From positions 25,126-89,125 of the forward strand of contig JACPSI010000042.1 of the NCBI GenBank assembly GCA_016193365.1: 64,000 nt of DNA. Direction: 5' to 3'. Positions 1,967 to 19,397 of the stretch are shown piece by piece. Source of the stretch: Ignavibacteriales bacterium (GTDB lineage Bacteria > Bacteroidota > Ignavibacteria > UBA10030). The translations under genes were made by a program, and so were the position numbers. The notes under the pieces were generated by a model. It was not told the DNA's origin. It ran no database searches and saw only the letters and a list, made by a program, of their open reading frames with translations. Position 1 is the stretch's first letter, and the number at the start of each line of letters is the position of its first letter.

Positions 1967-3136
1967 CTAGGAGACAAAAACTTTTGCCACATCCAGCAGC
2001 ATGGAGGGACGATTCCAGAGAGCCGCGCGAAAAATACCGCCGAGCGTTTGTTTATCCTCAGGAAGTTTTCGCGCGCTCTCAGCAATGCTGTTGTACGTCT
2101 CGTCGGAAAAACTGGTGATTGCATCCCTGATTTTGTAGAACACCTCATGCCTCCATCCAAGACGTTTGTGCCACCGCTTCTCGTATTCCGGGAGATACGA
2201 AAGGTCGTTCATCCTCACAGCCTCCGCCGCCACCTGGCCCGCGATCATTCCTCCAATCATCCCGCTGATGATGCCGGCCCCGGAGGTCGGGTTGACCTGG
2301 CGTGCAGCATCGCCCACAAGCATCACATTGTTTTTGACAACCGTGTCGGTCGTCTTTGCGCACGGTACGCCGCCGGCGATGCGAGTGAGTACGGCCGCAT
2401 CTGGAAATTTTTCCTGGATGAATTCTTCAAGATACCTGAGGGCGGATTTCTTTTTTGCGTCTTCGGCACAAATGCCAATGCCCACATTCGCAGTGTCCTT
2501 GCCCTTGGGAAACACCCACAAATAACCTCCCGGCGCCACATCGCCGCCGAAATAGAAATCGAGTGTATCGTCTTCGACCTCAATGCCGGAAAGCGTCATC
2601 TGCGCGCAGCTTTCCATATCCTTGATATGGCAGGTGGTGTCCATCCCGGCCCATTTTCCCACGCGGCTCTCCACACCATCGGCGGCAATAACGACTTTCG
2701 ACCGTATCTCCGTCTCCCGGTCTTTCAGAAGGGCTTTCACGCCCACCGCTTCGCCTTTTTCGTTCTTGAGAATGTCGTACACATAGGCTTTTGTGACAAC
2801 TTCCGCGCCTTCCTTTGCCGCGACTTTTGCAAGCTCGTAGTCAAAAATCCTTCGTTCAAGCACGTATCCTTTGCCGTCAAGCTGTGGAATGACGGATTTC
2901 CCATTCGGAGGCACAAGACGAAATCTCGTGATCGTAGAACCGATGAATTTTGAATCGGGCTCAATAAACTGGACGAGACCTTCGTGACTGACGGCTTCGC
3001 CGCACCGCACGGGATAACCGACATCACGATCCTTTTCGAGCATCAGGACGGATGCCCCCCCGGAGGAGGCATACCTTGCGGCCGTCGACCCAGCGGGCCC
3101 GGCGCCAACAATAATAATATCGTAAGATTCTTTCAC
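1967..3136 (-). CDS. Geranylgeranyl reductase family FAD-dependent oxidoreductase
   Basis: 389 aa. N-terminal DIIIVGAGPAGSTAARYAS FAD-binding motif, the VRCGEAV motif and overall ChlP/BchP-like architecture. Confidence 0.85.
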   Translation of the reverse strand: MKESYDIIIVGAGPAGSTAARYASSGGASVLMLEKDRDVGYPVRCGEAVSHEGLVQFIEPDSKFIGSTITRFRLVPPNGKSVIPQLDGKGYVLERRIFDYELAKVAAKEGAEVVTKAYVYDILKNEKGEAVGVKALLKDRETEIRSKVVIAADGVESRVGKWAGMDTTCHIKDMESCAQMTLSGIEVEDDTLDFYFGGDVAPGGYLWVFPKGKDTANVGIGICAEDAKKKSALRYLEEFIQEKFPDAAVLTRIAGGVPCAKTTDTVVKNNVMLVGDAARQVNPTSGAGIISGMIGGMIAGQVAAEAVRMNDLSYLPEYEKRWHKRLGWRHEVFYKIRDAITSFSDETYNSIAESARKLPEDKQTLGGIFRAALWNRPSMLLDVAKVFVS

Positions 3137-3187
3137 GGGCGGCGCTCGGTCTGGGGAGATGTTGCGCGGTTCACTTATGACAGGGTT

Positions 3188-3439
3188 TTATTCTGACCCG
3201 TTATTCAGGTATAACGGTTGCTCTTTGGGCAGTTCTGCCACACCCTCCCGATGGAATTCAATGACCTCCCAGGGGCACGCCCAGACGCATTTTTTGCAGT
3301 TTGTGCACCGTTCGTCGATGATGGCGATTCTTGATTCCATCAGTTCGATGGCATCTTCGGGACATACGCCAACGCAACAGCCGCAGAAGTCGCACTTCCC
3401 GGGAACGATGTGAATCATCAATGGAGTGCTGCGAGGCAT
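3188..3439 (-). CDS. 2x[4Fe-4S] ferredoxin
   Basis: 83 aa with two CxxCxxCxxxCP clusters (CDFCGCCVGVCP and CTNCKKCVWACP). It lies immediately upstream of, and co-oriented with, the GGR gene. Confidence 0.85.
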   Translation of the reverse strand: MPRSTPLMIHIVPGKCDFCGCCVGVCPEDAIELMESRIAIIDERCTNCKKCVWACPWEVIEFHREGVAELPKEQPLYLNNGSE

Positions 3440-3495
3440 GGTATGAAAATAAGGTAGAGAGAGAAGGGAAGAAAAGCAATCTCGTCGCAGCAGAC

Positions 3496-3610
3496 CTTCC
3501 GAAGGAATTCAGGTGAATTCGTGTCCTTCGGAAGGTTAACATTGCCAAAACTTCGAGTTGACGAGAGAACCTTCCGAGGGTCCTCTCATGGCGTTGAAAC
3601 CTTCGGAAGG
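3496..3610. repeat. Array of four 11-bp near-palindromes CCTTCSGAAGG between dnaG and the ferredoxin gene
   Basis: ccttccgaagg 3496-3506, ccttcggaagg 3525-3535, ccttccgaggg 3570-3580, ccttcggaagg 3600-3610. Orientation alternates, and the last unit abuts the dnaG stop codon. Confidence 0.5.
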
Positions 3611-3613
3611 TCT

Positions 3614-5461
3614 TTAGACCTTTTCCGTCTCTTTCATGAGTTTCATCAACTCCTGATGCCGGACGACGAACGGCATTTTGTCCGAGCCGCGTTGGGTCGC
3701 CTCTTTCAACATGCGCTGGTTTTCCTCAATTTGTTTTTGAATTGCACGCTTTTTTAGCAACGCAAGGGCATCCCTCGCGATCTGTTTGGGATCCGGTTCG
3801 TCGATTTCCTTGTTCACCCATCCTTTGCTCAACTCATACTTGCTCAATGATATGTCCGTAATGATTGCCTTTAATTCCTGATCGTCCATTTCATTCAAAA
3901 GAGAAACTGCATTGATTTCACCCAATTCACGCCAGTGGGAAAACAAATACTCCGTCAGCTTTCGAGCCCGTTCATCCGCAAACTGTTCGATCGTAACATT
4001 TTTCGAAATGAAATCGATTATTTCGCTTTGGCCCTCGAGCAACAGTTTCACGAGGTCACGTTCGGCTGAAGGCATATCGGATGTTTTGGGGACTGTGATG
4101 TCGGACAAGGTGACATCATAAACAGGAACTCGCTGAGACCCCGTTGCCTCTCTGCGTACAGGCTTGTCTTTCGAAATCCACCTCTCAAGCTCCCGGTACA
4201 GGATTGACTCGTAAATCTCGTATTTTTCGGCAACTTCTTTGATGTAGAAGTTGCGTTTGAGCTCGTCCCTCATTTTGGCAATCGATTGCACAATCGAGCG
4301 AACTGCTTCGGACTTTCGTTCCGGGGACAAAAACGCCCCCGTTTTCTGATACTGCCGTGCTTTGAAATCGATGAAGGACGTTGCCTGTTCAGCCAACTTC
4401 TGAAATTCCTTCCCGCCGTTTTTCCTAACAAACAAATCGGGGTCGTCGCCTTCGGGCAGTTCCACGACTCTCACGTCGAAATCCTGCTCAAGGGCAAGGT
4501 CCACTCCTCTCAACGTTGCACTCGACCCGGCTGAGTCGGCATCGTACACCAACGTCAACTTCCTGGAATATCGGGCGAGGAGCAGAAGTTGCTCTTCCGT
4601 TAATGCCGTTCCGCTAGATGCAACGACATTTTGAACTCCTGCCTGATACAACGAGATCAGGTCGGCATAGCCTTCGACCATCAATGCGTTGTCTTCTCCT
4701 CGGATCGCATCTTTGGAGTGGAAGAGTCCAAAGAGCACGCGGCTTTTGTTGTACATGGGCGTTTCCGGGGAATTGATGTATTTCCCGAGCGTATCATCCT
4801 CACGGATTTTGCGCGCGCCAAAAGCAATGACACGTCCCGTCGTGGCAAAAATGGGAAACATTGCCCGTCCGCGGAAGTAATCGTAATGGGTGCCATCTTC
4901 CCGGGTTCGCACAAGTCCTGCTTTCAAAAGATGTTCGAGCTTGAGGCCTTCCTCCAAAGCTTTTTTCAGAAAATTGTCCCACCGATGCAGCGAATACCCA
5001 AGGCCGAAAGCACGAATCGTGTCGTCCGTGAACCCTCTGGAATGAAAGTACTCCAGCGCCGACCTGCCCTCATCGGTTTTTGTGAGGTTGTTATGAAAAT
5101 GAAGGCCGGCGAACCTGCAGGCGTTGTAGAGCGCCTCGGTCTCCGTTTGTTGCTCAACCGAGATGTCTGCCGTCGGAAGCGCGATTCCCGCTCTCTCTGC
5201 CAGAGAACGGACAGCCTCAATGAACGAGACCTTTTCATATTCCATAACAAACGTAAACACGTTTCCGCCTTTGTGGCAGCCGAAACAATGATACATTTGC
5301 TTCTCCGGGCTTACGGTGAAGGAAGGTGTTTTTTCCTGGTGAAAAGGGCATAATCCAAGGAAATTCTTTCCCCTTTTCTTCAGGCGGACATGCGACGCAA
5401 TAATGTCAACAATATCCGAAGCCGAGCGCACTTCATCGATTTTGAAATCGGGAATTCTCAT
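3614..5461 (-). CDS. dnaG: DNA primase DnaG
   Basis: CHC2 zinc finger (LCPFHQEKTPSFTVSPEKQMYHCFGCHKGGNVFTF), then TOPRIM and C-terminal helical domains. I chose the internal ATG at 5461 (MRIPDFKIDEVRSASDIVDII...). The longest ORF start at 5680 adds a low-complexity, basic 73-aa extension that overlaps the upstream slt gene and a terminator hairpin. Confidence 0.88.
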   Translation of the reverse strand: MRIPDFKIDEVRSASDIVDIIASHVRLKKRGKNFLGLCPFHQEKTPSFTVSPEKQMYHCFGCHKGGNVFTFVMEYEKVSFIEAVRSLAERAGIALPTADISVEQQTETEALYNACRFAGLHFHNNLTKTDEGRSALEYFHSRGFTDDTIRAFGLGYSLHRWDNFLKKALEEGLKLEHLLKAGLVRTREDGTHYDYFRGRAMFPIFATTGRVIAFGARKIREDDTLGKYINSPETPMYNKSRVLFGLFHSKDAIRGEDNALMVEGYADLISLYQAGVQNVVASSGTALTEEQLLLLARYSRKLTLVYDADSAGSSATLRGVDLALEQDFDVRVVELPEGDDPDLFVRKNGGKEFQKLAEQATSFIDFKARQYQKTGAFLSPERKSEAVRSIVQSIAKMRDELKRNFYIKEVAEKYEIYESILYRELERWISKDKPVRREATGSQRVPVYDVTLSDITVPKTSDMPSAERDLVKLLLEGQSEIIDFISKNVTIEQFADERARKLTEYLFSHWRELGEINAVSLLNEMDDQELKAIITDISLSKYELSKGWVNKEIDEPDPKQIARDALALLKKRAIQKQIEENQRMLKEATQRGSDKMPFVVRHQELMKLMKETEKV

Positions 5462-5490
5462 TCGTGACCGAATGTAGCTAAAGAAAAGAC

Positions 5491-5525
5491 AACAAAAAAG
5501 CCCCTCCTGGGTTGGTCGGAGGGGC
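5491..5525 (-). terminator. Rho-independent terminator downstream of slt
   Basis: gcccctcc-N10-ggaggggc hairpin at 5500-5525, followed on the minus strand by a U-tract (plus-strand A6 at 5494-5499). It sits between the slt stop (5559) and the dnaG start (5461). Confidence 0.55.
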
Positions 5526-5558
5526 CGTGGCGTGTTTGGCGGTTGGGTATCGCGGGAT

Positions 5559-6395
5559 TTAATCGGAGACTTGTCCTCCCTGGCGTACGGCCGCGAGAAA
5601 TCCTCTCTTTGTTCTTTCCTGCTCTTTCGTTTCCGGAACAATCGCGTTTGTGTACGCCATGGTGCCGACGGAGTTTTCATAATATCTCATGATCCTGTCC
5701 ACATAACGAACGGTCTCCTTCCATCCCTCAAAGTAACCGTTCGGCGGCCGGTCTTGTTGCCAGAGGCCCTGGTGAAGCGTGTGGTATCTTCTGGAAAGCA
5801 ACGGCAGGGCATCGCGAACAGAATCCCAGCGACTCGGGTTGTGGCCAAGATACGCGGCAATCTGTCGAGCGTCGAGGACGCGGGAAATGCCGCCATTGTA
5901 TGCCGCGAGGGCCAGGCGAATACGGTTGTCCCTGTCGGTTTCCCTGAAAATGTGATAGAGCGATCTCAGATGGAATATTCCTGCCCTCACATTATTGTCG
6001 GGAGTCCTTGTTTCCTTCACACCGAGCTGCCATTTCAGTGTCGACTCTGTCGTTGGCATGATTTGCATTAATCCGTAGGCGCCTTTGTTGCTGACCGCGT
6101 CAGATTTGAATCCCGATTCCTGTCGAATGACCGACATGATGAGAACCCAGTCGAAGTGGTATTGTCCTGAATATCTTTGGACGAGAGGGAGATAGTCAAG
6201 TTCTGCGTCCACAAGACTCGGGGTCTCTTCGGGGAATGAGGCAGCGGTAAACCCTGCCACAGAAAAATCATTCTGCAAATGTTTCTTCCGAAAAACCGAA
6301 AGGCTTGTCACCGGCTCGAAACATCCAGCATGCAGGATGCACACCAGGAGCATCGCATTTCTAACGGTGATTCGGTAACGTTTTTGTTTCAACAT
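5559..6395 (-). CDS. Lytic transglycosylase (SLT domain)
   Basis: 278 aa. SLT catalytic motif ESGFKSDAVSNKGAYGLMQIMP, and AYNGG. Confidence 0.85.
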   Translation of the reverse strand: MLKQKRYRITVRNAMLLVCILHAGCFEPVTSLSVFRKKHLQNDFSVAGFTAASFPEETPSLVDAELDYLPLVQRYSGQYHFDWVLIMSVIRQESGFKSDAVSNKGAYGLMQIMPTTESTLKWQLGVKETRTPDNNVRAGIFHLRSLYHIFRETDRDNRIRLALAAYNGGISRVLDARQIAAYLGHNPSRWDSVRDALPLLSRRYHTLHQGLWQQDRPPNGYFEGWKETVRYVDRIMRYYENSVGTMAYTNAIVPETKEQERTKRGFLAAVRQGGQVSD

Positions 6396-7828: not shown

Positions 7829-7868
7829 GATAAAACAAAAGCCCCTTCACATTGCATCGTGAAGGGGC
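7829..7868 (-). terminator. Intrinsic terminator downstream of groEL
   Basis: Hairpin gccccttcac-N8-gtgaaggggc (7841-7868) followed on the minus strand by uuuuguuuua (RC of 7829-7840). A third segment, gaaggggc at 7821-7828, could pair alternatively. Confidence 0.55.
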
Positions 7869-7880
7869 TTGAACTTCTGT

Positions 7881-9591: not shown

Positions 9592-9882
9592 TTACTTGGG
9601 CATGATTGCAAAAATGTCGCTTTCGCGCATGATCAGCAGCTCGTCGCCGTCAAGCGTCACTTCAGTTCCGGAATACTTTCCGTAAAGTACTCTGTCGCCG
9701 TTCTTAACCTCCATCGGGATGCTCTTCCCATCCTCGGTGACTCGACCGGGACCAACTGCCACAACCTCTCCCCATACCGGTTTTTCTTTTGCCGTATCCG
9801 GCACGATGATTCCGCCTTTCGTGCGTTCCTCAGCCTCAGCGGGCTTTACTACAACACGATCGGCCAAAGGCTTGATCTTCAT
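9592..9882 (-). CDS. groES: Co-chaperonin GroES (Hsp10)
   Basis: 96 aa. [35 protein letters not shown]...; 19 nt upstream of groEL. Confidence 0.95.
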
Positions 9883-9938: not shown

Positions 9939-9965
9939 TTAGCACTCTTTAATTCTGAGTGCTAA
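9939..9965 (-). promoter_or_regulatory. CIRCE operator (HrcA binding site) upstream of groES
   Basis: Exact consensus TTAGCACTC-N9-GAGTGCTAA (ttagcactctttaattctgagtgctaa), 57 nt upstream of the groES start. Confidence 0.85.
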
Positions 9966-9992
9966 TATAATGCAGAAAGACCGATTTGTCAA
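9965..9992 (-). promoter_or_regulatory. Putative sigma-70-type promoter of groESL
   Basis: Minus-strand read cTTGACAaatcggtctttctgcatTATATTagcactc: -35 TTGACA, 17-nt spacer, -10 TATATT directly abutting CIRCE. Inferred from sequence only. Confidence 0.45.
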
Positions 9993-10684
9993 GAGGGATT
10001 ACCTTCTACAAGGATAACGTACTCACCTCGTGTGGGCTTTGAGGAGAGTTCTTTCAGGACTGTAGAGGCCCTACCCCGGACGATTTCTTCGAATTTCTTC
10101 GTCAGTTCTCTAGAAACGACCACCTTTCGCTCTCCCCAACCTTCAAGGATTTCCCTTAGGGTTTTCAAGATTCTATGAGGAGATTCATAGAGAACTACAG
10201 TCCTTGTTTCTGCTTTTAGTGCTTCCAGTCTGGTTTTTCGACCTTTCTTCTGAGGGAGAAAACCTTCGAACACAAAGCTCTTTGTGTCCAACCCGCTCGA
10301 GATGAGCGCGCTAAGAAAAGCCGATGGACCTGGAATTGGAACGATTGGAATTTCTTTTTCTATCGCTTGTGTAACAATATGATATGCGGGGTCTGAGATT
10401 CCGGGCGTTCCTGCATCAGAAACGAGCGCGATAGATTGGCCGCTTAAGAGTTTCTCAATGAGCTGTGGAGTCCTGGCTTTCTCATTGTAGCTGAAATAGC
10501 TCAGCATCGGTTTTGAAACCTGGTAATGGTCAAGGAGGATCTTTGTTTTGCGTGTGTCTTCAGCGGCGATGAGGTCAACTAAGGAAAGAACCTTGATTGC
10601 GCGATGACTGATGTCTTCAAGGTTACCGATTGGCGTTGCGACGATGAAAAGAGTGCCTCGGCTAGATTCCCCAGTCCCGGACAT
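9989..10684 (-). CDS. rsmI: 16S rRNA (cytidine1402-2'-O)-methyltransferase RsmI
   Basis: 231 aa. GTLFIVATPIGNLEDISHRAIKVL...LIAAEDTR tetrapyrrole-methylase-like fold typical of RsmI. Confidence 0.88.
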   Translation of the reverse strand: MSGTGESSRGTLFIVATPIGNLEDISHRAIKVLSLVDLIAAEDTRKTKILLDHYQVSKPMLSYFSYNEKARTPQLIEKLLSGQSIALVSDAGTPGISDPAYHIVTQAIEKEIPIVPIPGPSAFLSALISSGLDTKSFVFEGFLPQKKGRKTRLEALKAETRTVVLYESPHRILKTLREILEGWGERKVVVSRELTKKFEEIVRGRASTVLKELSSKPTRGEYVILVEGNPS

Positions 10685-11585
10685 AGCGGAAATCTACGTT
10701 GAGAGTTCGGTAGGAAACTTTGGCAATAAGCGGCGGGCGGCGCTTAAACTGGTTCTTTCGGACAAGCAGTCTTACTTTTTTCACAAACTCTTTCGAAAAC
10801 CCCATATTCAATAACTCGTCGTCGGAGCGGCGCTCATCAATCATTTGAAAAAGGAGCTGGTCAACCTCGCGATAGGAAAACCCCAGCTCGCCTTCATCCG
10901 TCTGTCCGGACCACAAGTCGGCGGTCGGCTTTTTGTCAACGATTCTTTTCGGCACACCGAGCGACTCTGAGATTTGCCATACTTGAGTTTTATAAAGATC
11001 GCCCAACGGGTTGATAGCACACGCCGTATCCCCGAAAAGCGTCCCGTAGCCAAGAAGTAATTCGGTCTTGTTACTCGTTCCAATAACAAGGGCTTTCTCT
11101 CGTGCAGAGATATCATAGAGCACGATCATCCGAACACGAGCCATGATGTTTCCCCGTCGGACCTTATCCGTCGCCTTGTGTTTGTCACAGTACGCATCCA
11201 CCATCGCTGATATATCAACGGTTTCCGATTTGATGCCCAGTTCACGCACAACGAGCTCAGCGTCCTGGACGCTTTGGGGCAAACCTGTTCTGTACGGAAG
11301 GATTACGGCGTGCGTGTTTGTTTTGCCCAGCGCTTTTGCCATCAGGTAAGCTGAAACGGCCGAGTCAACGCCTCCCGACAGGCCAATCACCCCCCTGGAA
11401 AAGCCGGCATTTCCTGTCTCGTCTTTGATGAATTGGACGAGAAGGTTCGTCACCGTTTCCGCATTGAGTTTCAGCGCTTCCTTGTGGTCGACTCGGGCAG
11501 TTTCCATATTCGTCATGTGTAGAAGCCTGCCTTCTACCCCGTCCAACGTGATAGAAGGCAGGCTTTCTGACAGGTCATTCTCCAT
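10662..11585 (-). CDS. nadE: NH3-dependent NAD+ synthetase
   Basis: 307 aa. PP-loop GLSGGVDSAVSAYLMAKALG. Confidence 0.9.
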   Translation of the reverse strand: MENDLSESLPSITLDGVEGRLLHMTNMETARVDHKEALKLNAETVTNLLVQFIKDETGNAGFSRGVIGLSGGVDSAVSAYLMAKALGKTNTHAVILPYRTGLPQSVQDAELVVRELGIKSETVDISAMVDAYCDKHKATDKVRRGNIMARVRMIVLYDISAREKALVIGTSNKTELLLGYGTLFGDTACAINPLGDLYKTQVWQISESLGVPKRIVDKKPTADLWSGQTDEGELGFSYREVDQLLFQMIDERRSDDELLNMGFSKEFVKKVRLLVRKNQFKRRPPLIAKVSYRTLNVDFRYVRDWGI

Positions 11586-16313: not shown

Positions 16314-16388
16314 CCTTCACTACTATAAATTAGTTCCATGAACAGCTTGTATTTGTTCGCCACACACTTTTCAAGCCGACCCACCTCA

Positions 16389-16412
16389 CCTTCCCTCCAA
16401 GGGGAGGGAAGG
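16389..16412 (-). other. Perfect 10-bp stem hairpin between htrA and purB
   Basis: ccttccctcc-aagg-ggagggaagg. No U-tract on either strand, so it may be a regulatory or RNA-processing hairpin rather than a classical terminator. Confidence 0.4.
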
Positions 16413-16474
16413 AAGGGTCCGATATTTACGAGCAATGTGTTCGCAGACTGTTTCCCAATCGCGCCAGCGTTCCC

Positions 16475-17671
16475 TTATGATGGCTGACGTTCAACTTTCA
16501 ATTGTGCAGTCATCGTTTTTCGTTCGCGGTAAAACTTGATGTTCAAAACATCGCCGGCGCTGGCATCCAGGAGAATTGAGCTGAGGTCTTCAGAAGAATT
16601 AATCTTTTCTCCGTTGACCTCAACAATAATGTCTCCTACCTTCAACCCCGCTTTCTCCGCCGGGCTCTTCGTTTGAATTTCACTCAGGATAATTCCTTCG
16701 ACTTTCGTCAAACCAAAGTATCGGGCGATGCGAGTGTCCACCTGTTGAGCCTCAAACCCCACCCATACATCACGCACAATCTTGCCCTTGTTTTTCAGTT
16801 CAGTAACAATTTTCTTCACTTTGTTGATGGGAATCGCAAAACCGTAGCCGACGAAAGTTGAGCTCTGTCCGGCCGTATAAATCAGTGTGTTGACACCGAC
16901 AACTTCGCCAAGGCTGTTGACCAGGGGGCCGCCGCTATTTCCGCCATTAATCGCCGCATCCGTTTCAATCATATCCTTATAGAAATGCTCGCCGATGCGC
17001 CCAAGGTTCATACCAATGGAACTAATCACACCGACTGTAACGGTCGGTTTGTCGTTGATTTCAAAAAGGCCGAACGGGTTACCGAGTGCAATTGCCCATT
17101 CGCCCACAACGATGTCGTCTGAGTTGCCGAGCTTGACGAATGGGAGGTCTTTGCCGTCAACCTTGAGGAGTGTAATATCGGTTGCGGGGTCGGTTCCGAC
17201 AAGCTGAGCGCTCATCCGCTTGCCGCCCGTAAGAGTTACCGTAATCTCGGTGGCATTCCCGGCGACATGGTCGTTCGTCACGATGTAGCCGTCGGGTGAA
17301 ATAAAGAATCCGGAACCCAGCCCTTTGACTTCCTGCTTGTATGTCCGGTCGCCAAAGAACTGGCGGAAAAACGGGTCGTCACCGAAGAACCGTGAAAAGG
17401 GATCCCGGAATTGACGAACCTCAGTAACATTGATTCCGACAATCGCCGGGCTGACAGACGCCACTGCCTCAGTAATCGCGTTCCGACGGGAAGAAGTTAT
17501 TTGGTCCTGAAGAGAGGTCTGTTGAACTGACGGGAAAGATCTCTGGAACTCGTTCAAAGCCTGCGAGGAGTCCGATGTCCCAAGTGAAAATCCAATCCAA
17601 ACGCCAATAAGGGCCGGGATCATGAGAATGAGAGCAAATTTTACATATGTGCGCGCCATCTTCTTCCTCAC
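16475..17671 (-). CDS. HtrA/DegP-family periplasmic serine protease with PDZ domain
   Basis: 398 aa. Signal/TM N-terminus, catalytic triad context (TNDHV..., D, GNSGGPLVN) and a C-terminal PDZ domain. Confidence 0.9.
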   Translation of the reverse strand: MRKKMARTYVKFALILMIPALIGVWIGFSLGTSDSSQALNEFQRSFPSVQQTSLQDQITSSRRNAITEAVASVSPAIVGINVTEVRQFRDPFSRFFGDDPFFRQFFGDRTYKQEVKGLGSGFFISPDGYIVTNDHVAGNATEITVTLTGGKRMSAQLVGTDPATDITLLKVDGKDLPFVKLGNSDDIVVGEWAIALGNPFGLFEINDKPTVTVGVISSIGMNLGRIGEHFYKDMIETDAAINGGNSGGPLVNSLGEVVGVNTLIYTAGQSSTFVGYGFAIPINKVKKIVTELKNKGKIVRDVWVGFEAQQVDTRIARYFGLTKVEGIILSEIQTKSPAEKAGLKVGDIIVEVNGEKINSSEDLSSILLDASAGDVLNIKFYRERKTMTAQLKVERQPS

Positions 17672-18282
17672 ACAGTTTTTTGTTTGAAAAAAGACTTCAG
17701 TGTGTCAACGTGGCTCAAAATCAACATGAAACTCAAAGCACCTGAGAACTGGATGTATGCCACACTTTCGGCTGAAGCCACCATGAATACATTTATTGCC
17801 CTGTCCGGTATCACGGCAAGAATGAAAGGCGTTGCCAGGATGCAAAACACGTTCGCAAAGAGGATGTCTTTTTTGAGCCGATACACGAGCACCCACATCG
17901 AGCACCAAACAACCGTGTAGCTGACGCCGATAAGAAAAAGCCCTCCGCAGGCGGTTGCCAATCCCCTGCCACCTTTGAATCGAAGCCACATCGGATAGTT
18001 ATGTCCAAGAACAGATCCGAACAATCCAAAAGTCTTCAGCCAGAAATCTTCCCCGAAGAAAAGTCCCACGAACAAAACCGCCACAAGCCCTTTGAGCCCG
18101 TCGAGCACGCCGACGAGGTAGCCAATCAGCTTCGAGTTCGTGACACGAAAAGCATTGAACCCGCCGACATTGCCGCTGCCTGCTTCACGGATGTCGGCTC
18201 CCGTTTTTTGCTTTACGACAAGGTATGCCGTGGGGAGAGAACCGATGACATAGCCGCCGACAAGGCAAATGAAGTAAAGCAA
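17668..18282 (-). CDS. plsY: Glycerol-3-phosphate acyltransferase PlsY (copy 1)
   Basis: 204 aa polytopic membrane protein with the GSGNVGGFNAFR motif. Confidence 0.85.
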   Translation of the reverse strand: MLYFICLVGGYVIGSLPTAYLVVKQKTGADIREAGSGNVGGFNAFRVTNSKLIGYLVGVLDGLKGLVAVLFVGLFFGEDFWLKTFGLFGSVLGHNYPMWLRFKGGRGLATACGGLFLIGVSYTVVWCSMWVLVYRLKKDILFANVFCILATPFILAVIPDRAINVFMVASAESVAYIQFSGALSFMLILSHVDTLKSFFKQKTV

Positions 18283-18353
18283 ACTGATGTTCTTGGGAAT
18301 TTTCTAAGGAAAATTACGGAAAAGGCGCAGGGAAAGCAAGATGTCCCGATGAC

Positions 18354-18395
18354 CTTCCGAAGGTTCGCCAAGCCGTCTTATCGATCTTCGGAAGG
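18354..18395. repeat. Pair of 11-bp CCTTCSGAAGG palindromes
   Basis: ccttccgaagg at 18354-18364 and cttcggaagg at 18386-18395, in the plsY-gpsA intergenic region. They belong to the same family as the 3496-3610 array. Confidence 0.45.
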
Positions 18396-18398
18396 ACT

Positions 18399-19397
18399 TT
18401 ATGTTTCGCCTCTCGCGTCTCGTGTCATCAAGTCCTCCGTGGCTTTGTGAGGATCCTTGCCTTCGTAGAGTACTCGATAGACTTCGCTCACGATGGGCAC
18501 TTCCACATTGTGTTTCTGGGAAAGTTCATGGGCAGATTGAGACGTGGCAACTCCTTCAGCGACCATGACCATTTCTTTCAGAACATCCTGCAACTTTCGC
18601 CCTTTTCCAACTTCCTGACCAACGTGACGGTTGCGGCTGTGACGGCTCATGCAGGTGACAATCAAATCCCCTATTCCCGATAACCCTGCGAAAGTCCGCG
18701 GCTGTGCTCCCATTTTAACACCGAGACGTGTAATCTCGTAGATTCCGCGTGTCATGATCGCCGCTTTGGTATTATCGCCGAACCCGGCCCCGTCGCTTAT
18801 CCCAGCTCCGATTGCAATGATGTTCTTAATGGCGCCGCCAAGTTCAACTCCGCGAATATCTTCGTTGACATACACTCTGAAATAGCGCGTCATAAACGCG
18901 TCCTGCACGAGTTTTGCTGTCTTATCTTTGTATGCAGCCGAAACGACGGCCGTGGGGATTCTGCGACACACCTCCTCCGCGTGGCTCGGCCCGGAAAGAA
19001 TGGCGAGGTTCTCCTTTCGTTCATGCTTCAACACGTCTTCCAGCACTTCGGACATTGTCATGAGCGATTTATTCTCGATCCCTTTGGCCACGTTGCAGAT
19101 AATCGTTTTTTCGAGGTGAAGGTGGGCAATTTTTTCAATAACTGACCTCAAGAACTGCGAGGGTACTGCCGCAACAATCATATCTCTTTTACGACATGCC
19201 TCCTCAATGTCTGTCATGATATTCAGTTGCGGGGGGATCGGAATGCCGGGCAGGAATGAGGTGTTCTCTCCTTTTTTCCTCATCTGGTCGGCCTGTGCCG
19301 GTTTGTATGTCCACAGGTTGACGTCGTGCTTGTTCTCAAACAGCACGAGAGCGAGGGTCGTCCCCCAACTGCCAGCGCCAAGGACTGTGACTTTCAT
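18399..19397 (-). CDS. gpsA: NAD(P)H-dependent glycerol-3-phosphate dehydrogenase
   Basis: 332 aa. MKVTVLGAGSWGTTLALVL Rossmann start and the GpsA C-terminal domain. Confidence 0.95.
   Translation of the reverse strand: MKVTVLGAGSWGTTLALVLFENKHDVNLWTYKPAQADQMRKKGENTSFLPGIPIPPQLNIMTDIEEACRKRDMIVAAVPSQFLRSVIEKIAHLHLEKTIICNVAKGIENKSLMTMSEVLEDVLKHERKENLAILSGPSHAEEVCRRIPTAVVSAAYKDKTAKLVQDAFMTRYFRVYVNEDIRGVELGGAIKNIIAIGAGISDGAGFGDNTKAAIMTRGIYEITRLGVKMGAQPRTFAGLSGIGDLIVTCMSRHSRNRHVGQEVGKGRKLQDVLKEMVMVAEGVATSQSAHELSQKHNVEVPIVSEVYRVLYEGKDPHKATEDLMTRDARGET

What the first reader, a model, noticed from the sequence alone, without database searches (positions are those of the whole stretch)
3496..3610. 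CCTTCSGAAGG palindrome family: four-unit array after dnaG and a pair between plsY and gpsA
The same 11-bp near-palindrome occurs 4 times in alternating orientation within 115 bp (3496-3610), with the last copy touching the dnaG stop, and twice at 18354-18395. The palindromic arms belong to the same CCTTC/GAAGG family as the groEL-downstream hairpins (gaaggggc/gccccttc) and the 16389 hairpin (ccttccctcc). This looks like a short genome-specific palindromic repeat family, REP-like. Alternatively these are clustered binding sites for a dimeric regulator positioned upstream of the ferredoxin-GGR operon and gpsA.
Basis: seen in the sequence. Interest (0 to 1): 0.5.

Follow-up and report, generated by a model that had tools for sequence, protein, structure and literature searches.

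The report
REP hairpins of a RAYT transposase
The repeated CCTTCSGAAGG motif is the two arms of a family of short hairpin-forming repeats (REP elements) that sit just after genes in Ignavibacteria and that, in related genomes, flank the gene of the REP-associated transposase thought to copy them; this is a known kind of element, newly seen in this lineage.

Summary
There are 4 exact CCTTCSGAAGG copies against 0.02 expected. With two one-mismatch copies they make six arms, all intergenic.

The 11-mer is not the unit. A C-centred arm and a G-centred arm pair into a 13-bp-stem hairpin with a 17-21 nt unconserved loop (-21 to -23 kcal/mol). There are three hairpins: two after dnaG and one after gpsA. 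Those after dnaG and gpsA start 3 nt past the stop codon and lie upstream of the next gene's conserved promoter-like block.

A scan of public genomes found the same hairpin many times per genome in many Ignavibacteriota MAGs, and in Bacteroidota, Marinimicrobia and Anaerolineae MAGs.

In six related loci the hairpins directly flank a Y1/HUH transposase gene (Pfam Y1_Tnp; best NCBIfam match "REP-associated tyrosine transposase"). RAYT homologues picked by protein alone are flanked by hairpins with related arms.

At orthologous sites the hairpins are present, decayed or absent among close relatives.

The window has no RAYT, and the nadE-rsmI site that holds it in three related genomes is empty here.

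Verdict: a REP/RAYT family, a new member of a known kind. The operator reading is rejected. The groEL and 16389 hairpins are not members.

The parts
3569..3611 (.). REP hairpin A. Arms are 3570-3580 (CCTTCCGAGGG, one mismatch) and 3600-3610 (CCTTCGGAAGG), with a 19-nt loop. It starts 3 nt after the dnaG stop codon.
   Evidence: I24: 13 nt, 92% complementary; -21.3 kcal/mol, z -3.3
3494..3536 (.). REP hairpin B. Arms are 3495-3505 and 3525-3535, giving a perfect 13-bp stem (ACCTTCCGAAGGA / TCCTTCGGAAGGT). The 17-nt loop contains a small inner stem.
   Evidence: I16: 13 nt, 100%; -23.2 kcal/mol, z -5.4
18353..18395 (.). REP hairpin C. Arms are 18353-18363 and 18385-18395 (TCTTCGGAAGG, one mismatch), with a 21-nt loop. 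It starts 3 nt after the gpsA stop codon.
   Evidence: -21.9 kcal/mol, z -4.2. The orthologous copy in L025 keeps the arms while the loop has diverged.
3614..5680 (-). dnaG (DNA primase), the gene whose 3' end carries hairpins A and B. Databases start it at 5461 (615 aa).
3188..3439 (-). 2x[4Fe-4S] ferredoxin gene downstream of hairpins A and B, followed by the geranylgeranyl reductase gene at 1967-3136.
3442..3480 (-). Conserved promoter-like block upstream of the ferredoxin gene (ATTGCTTTTCTTCCCTTCTCTCTCTACCTTATTTTCAT). Relatives keep it whether or not the hairpins are present, so the hairpins are an insertion between the dnaG stop and this block.
   Evidence: direct comparison of window, L122 and L123. 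The promoter function is inferred.
18399..19397 (-). gpsA (glycerol-3-phosphate dehydrogenase), the gene whose 3' end carries hairpin C.
17668..18282 (-). plsY (glycerol-3-phosphate acyltransferase), downstream of hairpin C.
18306..18340 (-). Conserved promoter-like block upstream of plsY (CTTGCTTTCCCTGCGCCTTTTCCGTAATTTTCC). It is kept in relatives down to about 69-79% GpsA identity that lack the hairpin.
   Evidence: The promoter function is inferred.
10662..10684 (-). Empty RAYT site. nadE (10662-11585) overlaps rsmI (9989-10684) here. In L175, L024 and L089 a hairpin-flanked RAYT gene sits between these two genes.
   Evidence: The same empty state is seen in the close relative L176.

Best explanation
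The six CCTTCSGAAGG copies are the arms of three REP (repetitive extragenic palindrome) hairpins. They belong to a family of short non-autonomous repeats whose partner enzyme is a RAYT, a REP-associated Y1/HUH tyrosine transposase.

Shown here:
- Each element is a roughly 42-46 bp sequence, 5'-(A)CCTTCCGAAGG, a 17-21 nt variable loop, CCTTCGGAAGG(T)-3', that folds into a 13-bp-stem hairpin.
- The same hairpin recurs many times per genome in Ignavibacteriota relatives, almost always outside genes and very often within 0-14 nt of a stop codon.
- It is gained, lost or decayed at orthologous sites among close relatives.
- It directly flanks RAYT genes in related genomes.

Inferred from what is established for E. 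coli TnpA-REP and Pseudomonas REPIN-RAYT systems:
- The RAYT binds the folded single-stranded hairpin and cuts and rejoins DNA next to it, which creates and spreads copies.
- Copies survive where they do no harm, between a stop codon and the next promoter.
- When transcribed as the 3' end of the dnaG and gpsA messages, the stable hairpins probably protect the upstream mRNA from 3' exonucleases or partly stop read-through into the ferredoxin and plsY units.

In the window's own lineage the RAYT site found in three related genomes (between nadE and rsmI) is empty. Two of the three hairpins carry a stem mismatch, so these copies may be orphans that are no longer renewed.
For: - Over-representation and hairpin geometry in the window.
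Many genomes have several loci each, for example 6 loci in Ignavibacteria MAG VGWB01, 4 loci with 6 hairpins in CAYZRX01, and 10 loci in Chloroflexota JAGNBF01.
- In 37 Ignavibacteriota loci plus the window there are 42 hairpins. The arm spacing is 19-21 nt in 28 of them, the loops are unrelated, and the flank consensus is rAA-arm-TTy.
- 31 of the 42 have an ORF of at least 120 codons ending within 150 nt. 17 stop codons lie 0-14 nt from an arm.
- Orthologous sites at gpsA-plsY: intact in L025 (GpsA 95% identical; arms 21/22, loop about 57%), decayed in L133 (94%), and absent in all 17 relatives at 69-86% identity.
- Orthologous sites at dnaG-fdx: absent in L122 (DnaG 86% identical, only a 40-nt spacer), one decayed pair in L123 (83%), absent in L124.
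- RAYT link: tblastn and Pfam PF01797 above its cut-off. The best NCBIfam hit is NF047646, REP-associated tyrosine transposase, at E about 1e-17. This holds for ORFs next to the hairpins in L121, L024, L029, L089 and L064, which were ascertained only by the hairpin.
- L175 was ascertained through DnaG, not through the hairpin. It has perfect hairpins on both sides of its RAYT.
- RAYT homologues chosen by protein alone are flanked by hairpins with related arms: CGTCCCGAAGG-N8-CCTTCGGGACG in a Chloroflexi MAG and CCTTGCGAAGG-N8-CCTTCGCAAGG in an Ignavibacteriales MAG.
- JGI names many family members 'REP element-mobilizing transposase RayT'.
Against: - No RAYT gene lies in the 64-kb window. None of the best 120 homologues carries an accession near the window MAG's proteins. 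A partner enzyme in this genome is therefore not shown.
- The classical REP tag GTAG (or CGTC) is absent from the flanks.
- The RAYTs score below the NCBIfam equivalog cut-off (63-65 bits against 80).
- Phmmer finds no match to solved structures.
- Loops are completely unrelated between copies while arms are identical. That is unusual for freshly copied mobile DNA and needs either selection on the arms or an arm-templated mode of formation.
- The copy number in the window's own genome is only extrapolated from 3 hairpins in 64 kb.
- No transposition, cleavage or RNA-level effect has been observed.
Confidence: 0.85

Rival explanations
1. They are ordinary factor-independent transcription terminators or mRNA 3'-end stabilisers of dnaG and gpsA, with no link to a transposase. 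The shared stem sequence would be incidental.
For: The position is right after stop codons and upstream of the next promoter-like block. The hairpins are stable. Many relatives' copies have A-rich 5' and T-rich 3' flanks.
Against: None of the three window copies is followed by a U tract, and their loops are 17-21 nt. The organism's groEL terminator is canonical and looks different. Terminators do not need identical 11-13 nt arms across hundreds of sites and several phyla. The RAYT flanking is unexplained under this reading. A terminator or stabiliser role for the host remains compatible with the REP explanation.
Confidence: 0.07
2. They are clustered operators for a dimeric or tetrameric DNA-binding regulator controlling the ferredoxin-GGR operon and plsY.
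For: Each arm is nearly palindromic. The centre-to-centre spacing is tight, about 31 bp or three helical turns, in 28 of 42 copies.
Against: The sites lie upstream of a separately conserved promoter-like block and hug the upstream stop codon. They are absent or decayed at the same promoters in close relatives. They occur after unrelated genes, often between convergent genes. The C-first order is strongly preferred, which a symmetric dimer site would not require. Related families have non-palindromic arms.
Confidence: 0.03
3. They are DNA uptake signal sequences of a naturally competent lineage. In Neisseria and Haemophilus such signals often occur as inverted pairs after genes.
For: The arms are short and conserved, the loops between them are unconserved, and the position is at gene 3' ends.
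Against: The density is low at 6 arms in 64 kb, there are no exact copies inside genes, and none is unpaired. The same sequence is shared by different phyla, which defeats species-specific uptake. RAYT flanking is not expected under this reading.
Confidence: 0.02
4. They are genes or cis-elements for a structured small RNA or riboswitch-like element.
For: The fold z-scores are significant. Loop-conserved versions exist in Anaerolineae and Neomarinimicrobiota.
Against: There is no Rfam family at the gathering threshold or at the permissive threshold. Loops are unrelated among Ignavibacteriota copies. The stem reads the same on both strands, so no strand is defined.
Confidence: 0.03

Closest known systems
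E. coli REP/BIME elements with TnpA-REP (RAYT), as described by Nunvar 2010, Ton-Hoang 2012 and Messing 2012 (cited from my own knowledge and via PMC3733652 and PMC6006769)
   Same: They are short extragenic hairpin-forming repeats at gene 3' ends, present singly or in arrays with alternating orientation. Copies flank a single Y1/HUH transposase gene. Their distribution among relatives is variable.
   Different: There is no GTAG tag. The stem is 11-13 bp of moderate GC content with a long (17-21 nt) unconserved loop, rather than a short-loop imperfect palindrome. The RAYT is too distant for phmmer to reach the solved structures and scores below the NCBIfam equivalog cut-off.
Pseudomonas fluorescens REPIN-RAYT systems (Bertels and Rainey 2011, PMC3116915; PMC5581495)
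   Same: They share an inverted arrangement that forms a long hairpin and a spacer less conserved than the arms. The RAYT is at a conserved chromosomal site in different genomes (nadE-rsmI in L024, L089, L175). There is apparent decay where the RAYT is missing.
   Different: Here the two 'REPs' are best read as the two arms of one hairpin, because related families have non-palindromic arms with 8-nt loops. The spacer is completely unconserved. The arms are shared across phyla rather than being lineage-specific.
TIRYT/TIRtron elements and TnpA-Y1 subclass 2.1, equal to Bertels group 1 (Di Nocera 2013, PMC3733652; Quentin 2018, PMC6006769)
   Same: The catalytic motifs of the Ignavibacteriota RAYTs are NHYH, FQ/FE and Y[IF]H[LM]NP. 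They match the signature tabulated for subclass 2.1 (NH[YF]H, FQ, Y[IV]HLNP). Both are flanked by inverted repeats that form moderately abundant families.
   Different: Subclass 2.1 proteins average 238 aa with a C-terminal HTH domain and were reported to have no REP-like sequences nearby. These proteins are about 186-192 aa and are flanked by dispersed hairpins. The assignment rests on motif signature only; no phylogeny was done.
Neisseria DUS and Haemophilus USS inverted pairs
   Same: They have short identical arms with variable loops placed after genes.
   Different: The density here is far lower, there are no intragenic or single copies in the window, and the elements are linked to a transposase.

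Membership tests
REP / REPIN-RAYT system | Short (about 20-50 nt) sequence able to form a stable hairpin | tested here: met
   The stems are 13 bp and the free energies are -21 to -23 kcal/mol, with z-scores of -3.3 to -5.4.
REP / REPIN-RAYT system | Many copies per genome, overwhelmingly extragenic | tested here: met
   All 6 arms in the window are intergenic. 31 of 42 hairpins lie within 150 nt of the end of a long ORF.
REP / REPIN-RAYT system | Copy number in the window's own genome well above chance | not testable with these tools
   Only 64 kb of this genome is available. It holds 3 hairpins, which would extrapolate to roughly 50 per Mb.
REP / REPIN-RAYT system | Copies flank a RAYT (Y1/HUH transposase) gene | tested here: met
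   This is met in relatives L175, L024, L029, L089, L121 and L064. The reverse test with RAYTs chosen by protein gave flanking hairpins with related arms.
REP / REPIN-RAYT system | A cognate RAYT in the same genome as the repeats | tested here: inconclusive
   There is no RAYT in the window. The nadE-rsmI site is empty. No near-identical homologue has an accession close to the window MAG's proteins. The MAG may be incomplete.
REP / REPIN-RAYT system | Conserved GTAG (or CGTC) tetranucleotide at one end (PMC3733652) | tested here: not met
   The flank consensus is rAA on the 5' side and TTy on the 3' side, with no GTAG or CGTC.
REP / REPIN-RAYT system | Presence/absence and decay at orthologous sites among close relatives | tested here: met
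   gpsA-plsY and dnaG-fdx comparisons.
REP / REPIN-RAYT system | RAYT binds and cleaves the single-stranded hairpin and mobilises copies | not testable with these tools
   This needs biochemistry or an evolution experiment.
NCBIfam NF047646 (REP-associated tyrosine transposase, equivalog) | Whole-protein score at or above the curated cut-off of 80 bits | tested here: not met
   Scores are 51-65 bits with E-values of 1e-14 to 5e-18. It is the best and only hit. Pfam PF01797 Y1_Tnp is above its cut-off for all six proteins.
TnpA-Y1 subclass 2.1 / Bertels group 1 | HUH, W/F and Y motif signature NH[YF]H, FQ, Y[IV]HLNP | tested here: met
   The motifs were read directly from the translations, against Table 1 of PMC6006769. 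Placement in a phylogeny was not done.
TnpA-Y1 subclass 2.1 / Bertels group 1 | Long protein (mean 238 aa) with a C-terminal HTH-like domain | tested here: not met
   Family members are mostly 186-192 aa. Pfam reports no second domain.
Intrinsic (Rho-independent) terminator | GC-rich stem, short loop, then a U tract | tested here: not met
   The consensus scan does not call hairpins A-C as such; its one call nearby, 3605-3624, is a different small stem that overlaps the stop-proximal arm of hairpin A. The tails are UUCUCUC, UCUGCUG and UCAUCGG, and the loops are 17-21 nt.
Transcription-factor operator | Conserved at the orthologous promoter in relatives | tested here: not met
   The sites are absent or decayed in relatives that keep the promoter-like block.
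Rfam RNA families | Match to a curated covariance model | tested here: not met
   There are no hits at gathering score in the window or in 17 loci carrying the hairpins. Only chance-level hits appear at E up to 10.

The most novel reading that the evidence does not exclude
A branch of RAYT transposases carries the catalytic signature of subclass 2.1 / group 1, which the literature describes as lacking REPs. This branch may in fact maintain a true dispersed REP population. Its arm core (CCTTCSGAAGG, with variants CCTTGCGAAGG and CGTCCCGAAGG) may have been kept, or exchanged, across Ignavibacteriota, Bacteroidota, Marinimicrobia and Chloroflexota. That would be an unusually old or unusually mobile enzyme-repeat partnership. 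In some genomes the RAYT reads in frame through its own REP into the 16S rRNA methyltransferase RsmI.
Probability: 0.35. Interest if true: 0.55.

Novelty: new member of a known kind. Interest (0 to 1): 0.35.

Why it matters
REP/RAYT systems have been studied almost only in Proteobacteria. This finding gives a clear case in Ignavibacteriota, with a simple and easily searched arm sequence.

It offers a natural comparison between genomes that keep the RAYT at the nadE-rsmI site and close relatives that have lost it but still carry hairpins. That is the situation needed to test whether REPs decay without their enzyme.

Identical arms in several phyla, next to RAYTs about 50% identical, would allow a test of how tightly the enzyme and its repeat co-evolve.

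For annotation, it explains the odd insertions after dnaG and gpsA. It also warns that ORFs can read through these hairpins, because the arms translate as PSEG and NLRK.

Tried and rejected
- Rfam was scanned at gathering threshold on the whole window and on 17 loci, and at a permissive threshold on 3380-3680. Nothing came up.
- A full-text literature search for the four 11-mers returned only PCR primers and unrelated sequences.
- I tested whether the loop of hairpin C is inverted relative to L025. Forward and reverse alignments score alike, so the idea was dropped.
- C-first and G-first versions of the pattern were scanned on viral contigs. They gave 4 and 3 loci, which is background, so phages are not a reservoir.
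- My crude ORF-based gene calls placed several hairpins 'inside' ORFs. On inspection these are spurious or read-through ORFs, for example window 3258-3548 and the array ORFs in L121, so I relied on distances to the stops of long ORFs instead.
The E. coli YafM query, also from memory, gave the first weak RAYT hits, which were then confirmed with the loci's own proteins and with Pfam and NCBIfam.
- Phmmer against PDB sequences found no match.
- I looked for the window MAG's own RAYT by NCBI accession proximity. None was found among the best 120 homologues, which is inconclusive.
- I tested whether the groEL and 16389 hairpins belong to the family. This was rejected.

Full report
**1. The observation**

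The pattern CCTTCSGAAGG occurs exactly at 3495, 3525, 3600 and 18353. That is 4 matches against 0.02 expected from shuffles.
- One mismatch adds 3570 (CCTTCCGAGGG) and 18385 (TCTTCGGAAGG).
- It also adds two lone sites, 26460 and 29937. These are what chance gives: 8 found, 1.83 expected.
- All six copies are intergenic and lie between genes on the minus strand.
- The first four lie between dnaG (3614-5680; primase domains) and a 2x[4Fe-4S] ferredoxin gene (3188-3439), which is followed by a geranylgeranyl reductase gene.
- The last two lie between gpsA (18399-19397) and plsY (17668-18282).

**2. Anatomy**

The centre base alternates C,G,C,G and C,G. A C-centred copy is the exact reverse complement of a G-centred one, so the copies pair up.
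- Hairpin B is 3494-3536, with a perfect 13-bp stem and a 17-nt loop.
- Hairpin A is 3569-3611, with a 13-bp stem carrying one mismatch and a 17-nt spacing between the 13-nt arms.
- Hairpin C is 18353-18395, with an end mismatch and a 21-nt loop.
- Folded alone as RNA they give -23.2, -21.3 and -21.9 kcal/mol, with z-scores of -5.4, -3.3 and -4.2.
- Hairpins A and C each begin 3 nt after a TAA stop codon.
- None is followed by a U tract.
- No Rfam family matches, at either the gathering or the permissive threshold.

**3. Source and relatives**

Identical contigs occur in Logan assemblies of one sequencing project. The window's DnaG is NCBI protein MBI3004629.1, from an Ignavibacteriales MAG.

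**4. The same hairpin elsewhere**

- About 40 loci are from at least 16 Ignavibacteriota MAGs, several per MAG.
- Others come from Bacteroidota, Neomarinimicrobiota/Marinimicrobia, a Chlorobiaceae MAG and, with many copies, Anaerolineae/Chloroflexota MAGs.
- My rough estimate for a pattern of this information content in 596 Gb is a few tens of random hits. The clustering of hits within particular genomes is the stronger argument.
- In 37 Ignavibacteriota loci plus the window I collected 42 hairpins.
- The gap between the 11-mers is 19-21 nt in 28 of them.
- The loops share no sequence.
- The flanks of each arm read rAA...TTy on both the outer and the loop side.
- Among additional pairs in those loci that were not selected by the pattern, the C-first order predominates.
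- Viral contigs hold only background numbers: 4 C-first and 3 G-first loci.

**5. Position relative to genes**

31 of the 42 hairpins have an ORF of at least 120 codons ending within 150 nt on one side, and 8 have one on both sides. 17 such stop codons lie only 0-14 nt from an arm. Crude gene calls put most copies between co-directional or convergent genes and few between divergent ones. The window copies fit this pattern.

**6. Orthologous sites**

gpsA-plsY:
- L025 is a close relative (GpsA 95% identical). It has a perfect hairpin at the same place, with arms conserved 21/22 and the loop only about 57% alike.
- L133 (94%) has a clearly decayed copy.
- All 17 relatives at 69-86% identity (L134-L151, L170) have none.
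- Many of those that keep the plsY junction retain the downstream block CTTGCTTT...TTTTCCGTAATTTT.

dnaG-fdx:
- L122 (DnaG 86%) has only 40 nt between the stop and the ferredoxin start, made up of the conserved block TTGCTTTTCTT...
- L123 (83%) has a 189-nt spacer with one decayed pair.
- L124 has none.
- L125 has a lone AACCTTCAGAAGGTT over the last dnaG codons.

The hairpins are therefore insertions between a stop codon and the next gene's conserved promoter-like block, and they come and go among close relatives. That is the behaviour of mobile or dispensable repeats, not of operators.

**7. The transposase link**

The ORFs found there were used as queries and then tested against profile libraries.
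- L121:2656-3369, L024:5731-6252, L029:7474-7899, L089:6167-6736, L064:2901-3326 and L110:1299-1976 all pass Pfam Y1_Tnp (PF01797).
- For the four of them that were scanned (L121, L024, L089, L110), the only NCBIfam hit is NF047646, REP-associated tyrosine transposase. E-values are 1e-14 to 5e-18, and scores of 51-65 bits are below the 80-bit equivalog cut-off.
- They carry the HUH motif (NHYH) and the tyrosine motif (Y[IF]H[LM]NP).
- L029 and L089 have a hairpin on both sides. L024 has a hairpin downstream and only a lone degenerate copy upstream, and L064 has one downstream only. In L121 whole tandem arrays flank the gene.
- These loci had been selected only for containing a hairpin. An 8-kb block would contain a given single-copy gene with a chance of about 0.3%, so five or six such cases in 117 loci is a strong association.

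Two independent checks agree.
- L175 was fetched through its DnaG (76% identical to the window's), not through the hairpin. Its order is nadE, hairpin, RAYT, hairpin (plus an extra arm), rsmI, with a third perfect hairpin upstream of nadE.
- RAYT homologues chosen by protein alone are flanked by hairpins with related arms. These are CGTCCCGAAGG-N8-CCTTCGGGACG in a Chloroflexi MAG (L177, L179) and CCTTGCGAAGG-N8-CCTTCGCAAGG in an Ignavibacteriales MAG (L180).

Those variants are not palindromic within an arm. The repeat unit is therefore the hairpin, and the near-palindromy of CCTTC-S-GAAGG is a peculiarity of this variant. This also explains the C-first bias.

The protein family is large, with 5464 hits at E up to 1e-10. 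Members are mostly 186-192 aa, and JGI often names them 'REP element-mobilizing transposase RayT'.

**8. The window's own state**

- No RAYT homologue lies in the 64 kb.
- The order nadE-RAYT-rsmI is shared by L024, L089 and L175.
- In the window nadE (10662-11585) overlaps rsmI (9989-10684), with neither a RAYT nor a hairpin. The same holds in the close relative L176.
- None of the best 120 RAYT homologues has an accession near the window MAG's proteins. This is inconclusive for an incomplete MAG.
- Two of the three window hairpins have a stem mismatch, and orthologous copies are decayed in L133 and L123. This fits the published idea that REP populations erode once the RAYT is lost (PMC8049555; bioRxiv 10.1101/2021.07.10.451892). 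Here it remains an inference.

**9. Mechanism**

Shown: hairpin structure, multi-copy extragenic distribution, turnover at orthologous sites, and RAYT flanking.

Inferred from E. coli TnpA-REP biochemistry as summarised in PMC3733652 and PMC6006769:
- The RAYT recognises the folded single strand and cleaves beside it, generating and spreading copies.
- Copies persist where they are harmless, just past stop codons.
- As transcribed 3' hairpins they probably stabilise the upstream message or attenuate read-through. This would suit dnaG-to-fdx and gpsA-to-plsY, where the downstream gene keeps its own promoter-like block.

The unrelated loops with identical arms remain the least explained feature.

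**10. Comparison with known systems**

This works like REP/BIME-RAYT and REPIN-RAYT systems. There are four differences.
- There is no GTAG or CGTC tag (PMC3733652).
- The loops are long and variable.
- The arms are shared across phyla.
- The RAYT motif signature (NHYH, FQ/FE, Y[IF]H[LM]NP) matches that tabulated for subclass 2.1 / Bertels group 1. That class was reported to have no nearby REP-like sequences and to correspond to the 'TIRYT' type with flanking inverted repeats.

The proteins here are shorter and lack the C-terminal HTH domain, and no phylogeny was made. The subclass assignment is a lead, not a result.

**11. Rejected readings**

- Operators are rejected on position, on lack of conservation at orthologous promoters, and on copy number.
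- Plain terminators are rejected because there is no U tract, the loops are long, the arms are identical, and the groEL terminator at 7839-7870 is canonical and different.
- DNA uptake sequences are rejected on low density, absence from genes, and cross-phylum identity.
- A structured RNA is rejected because there is no Rfam match and the loops are unconserved.
- The 16389 hairpin is a separate 10-bp-stem hairpin.

**12. Verdict**

This is a genuine REP family with an identifiable RAYT partner in relatives: a new member of a known kind. Interest is moderate. It rises if the cross-phylum conservation of the arms and the group-1-like RAYT assignment hold up.

Noticed in passing
window 9939-9965: A perfect CIRCE element (TTAGCACTC-N9-GAGTGCTAA), the HrcA operator, lies upstream of groES (9592-9882, minus). 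The expected chance count is 0.01. A CIRCE-like site is also present upstream of groES in L175.
   Followed up: partly
L175:6566-7825; L024:4990-6252; L089:6100-6170: In L175 and L024 the RAYT ORF runs in frame through the downstream REP hairpin (arms translated as PSEG and NLRK) into rsmI, giving a single 419-420 aa ORF that carries Y1_Tnp plus TP_methylase. In L175 there is no ATG, GTG or TTG for rsmI between the RAYT core and the conserved LYIVATPIGN. In L089 the rsmI ATG lies inside the REP loop. This is either a real fusion or coupling, or a gene-calling trap.
   Followed up: partly
L121:2423-2634 and 3093-3672: Tandem arrays of the hairpin with a roughly 60-nt period lie on both sides of a RAYT gene in an Ignavibacteriota MAG. 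The RAYT ORF reads on into the array as repeated NLRKVxK/PSNLRK peptides.
   Followed up: partly
L038, L039, L052, L096, L005, L034, L041, L057 (Anaerolineae / Ca. Trichofilum): A longer element of about 77-80 nt has the same arms but a conserved loop and flanks (ctggtgaaacaa-CCTTCCGAAGG-TTTCGTT..GACCAGTGG..-CCTTCGGAAGG-ctgaacggttac). It is sometimes tandem at about 80 nt. The 5' flank CTGGT can pair with ACCAG in the loop. There is no Rfam match.
   Followed up: no
L027, L104, L108, L117 (Neomarinimicrobiota): The same arms enclose a 36-nt loop (TTCGGTAAGATAAGCGTCTGTGTCATAATGAAAAAA) that is conserved between different MAGs. This is unlike the Ignavibacteriota copies.
   Followed up: no
L054, L058, L088, L085, L037: A sub-family has a loop carrying an inner GC hairpin (GTCCGCC-N4-GGCGGAAA). 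It is shared by Ignavibacteriales, Marinimicrobia and Bacteroidetes MAGs and occurs in both orientations.
   Followed up: no
window 3442-3480 and 18306-18340 (minus strand): Conserved blocks TTGCTTT...N...TA(nn)TTTT lie just upstream of the ferredoxin and plsY genes and are kept in distant relatives. They resemble the -33/-7 promoter type known from Bacteroidetes; that comparison is from my own knowledge and was not tested.
   Followed up: partly
L175:11837-11851 (= L125:4337-4351): A lone perfect 15-bp palindrome AACCTTCAGAAGGTT with an A centre overlaps the last codons of dnaG in a relative that has no hairpin after dnaG.
   Followed up: no
window 7839-7870 (minus): The groEL gene ends with a canonical intrinsic terminator (AAGCCCCTTCAC-GATGCA-GTGAAGGGGCTT followed by TTGTTTT). 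The organism therefore uses ordinary terminators alongside the REP hairpins.
   Followed up: yes
window 16385-16417 (minus): A hairpin CCTTCCCTCC-CCTT-GGAGGGAAGG lies between the protease gene and the adenylosuccinate lyase gene. It has no U tract and is not a member of the REP family by sequence.
   Followed up: partly
L110:1299-1976 (Patescibacteria MAG): A longer RAYT homologue (225 aa) is surrounded by a different palindromic repeat (GAAGACCGTCTTCGAAGACGGTCTTC). One copy lies inside the ORF near its 5' end. This recalls the REP insertions within tnpA-REP genes described for another subclass.
   Followed up: no
window 3614-5680: The longest dnaG ORF is 688 aa, but the database protein identical to it starts at 5461 (615 aa). 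The first 73 codons are probably not translated.
   Followed up: no
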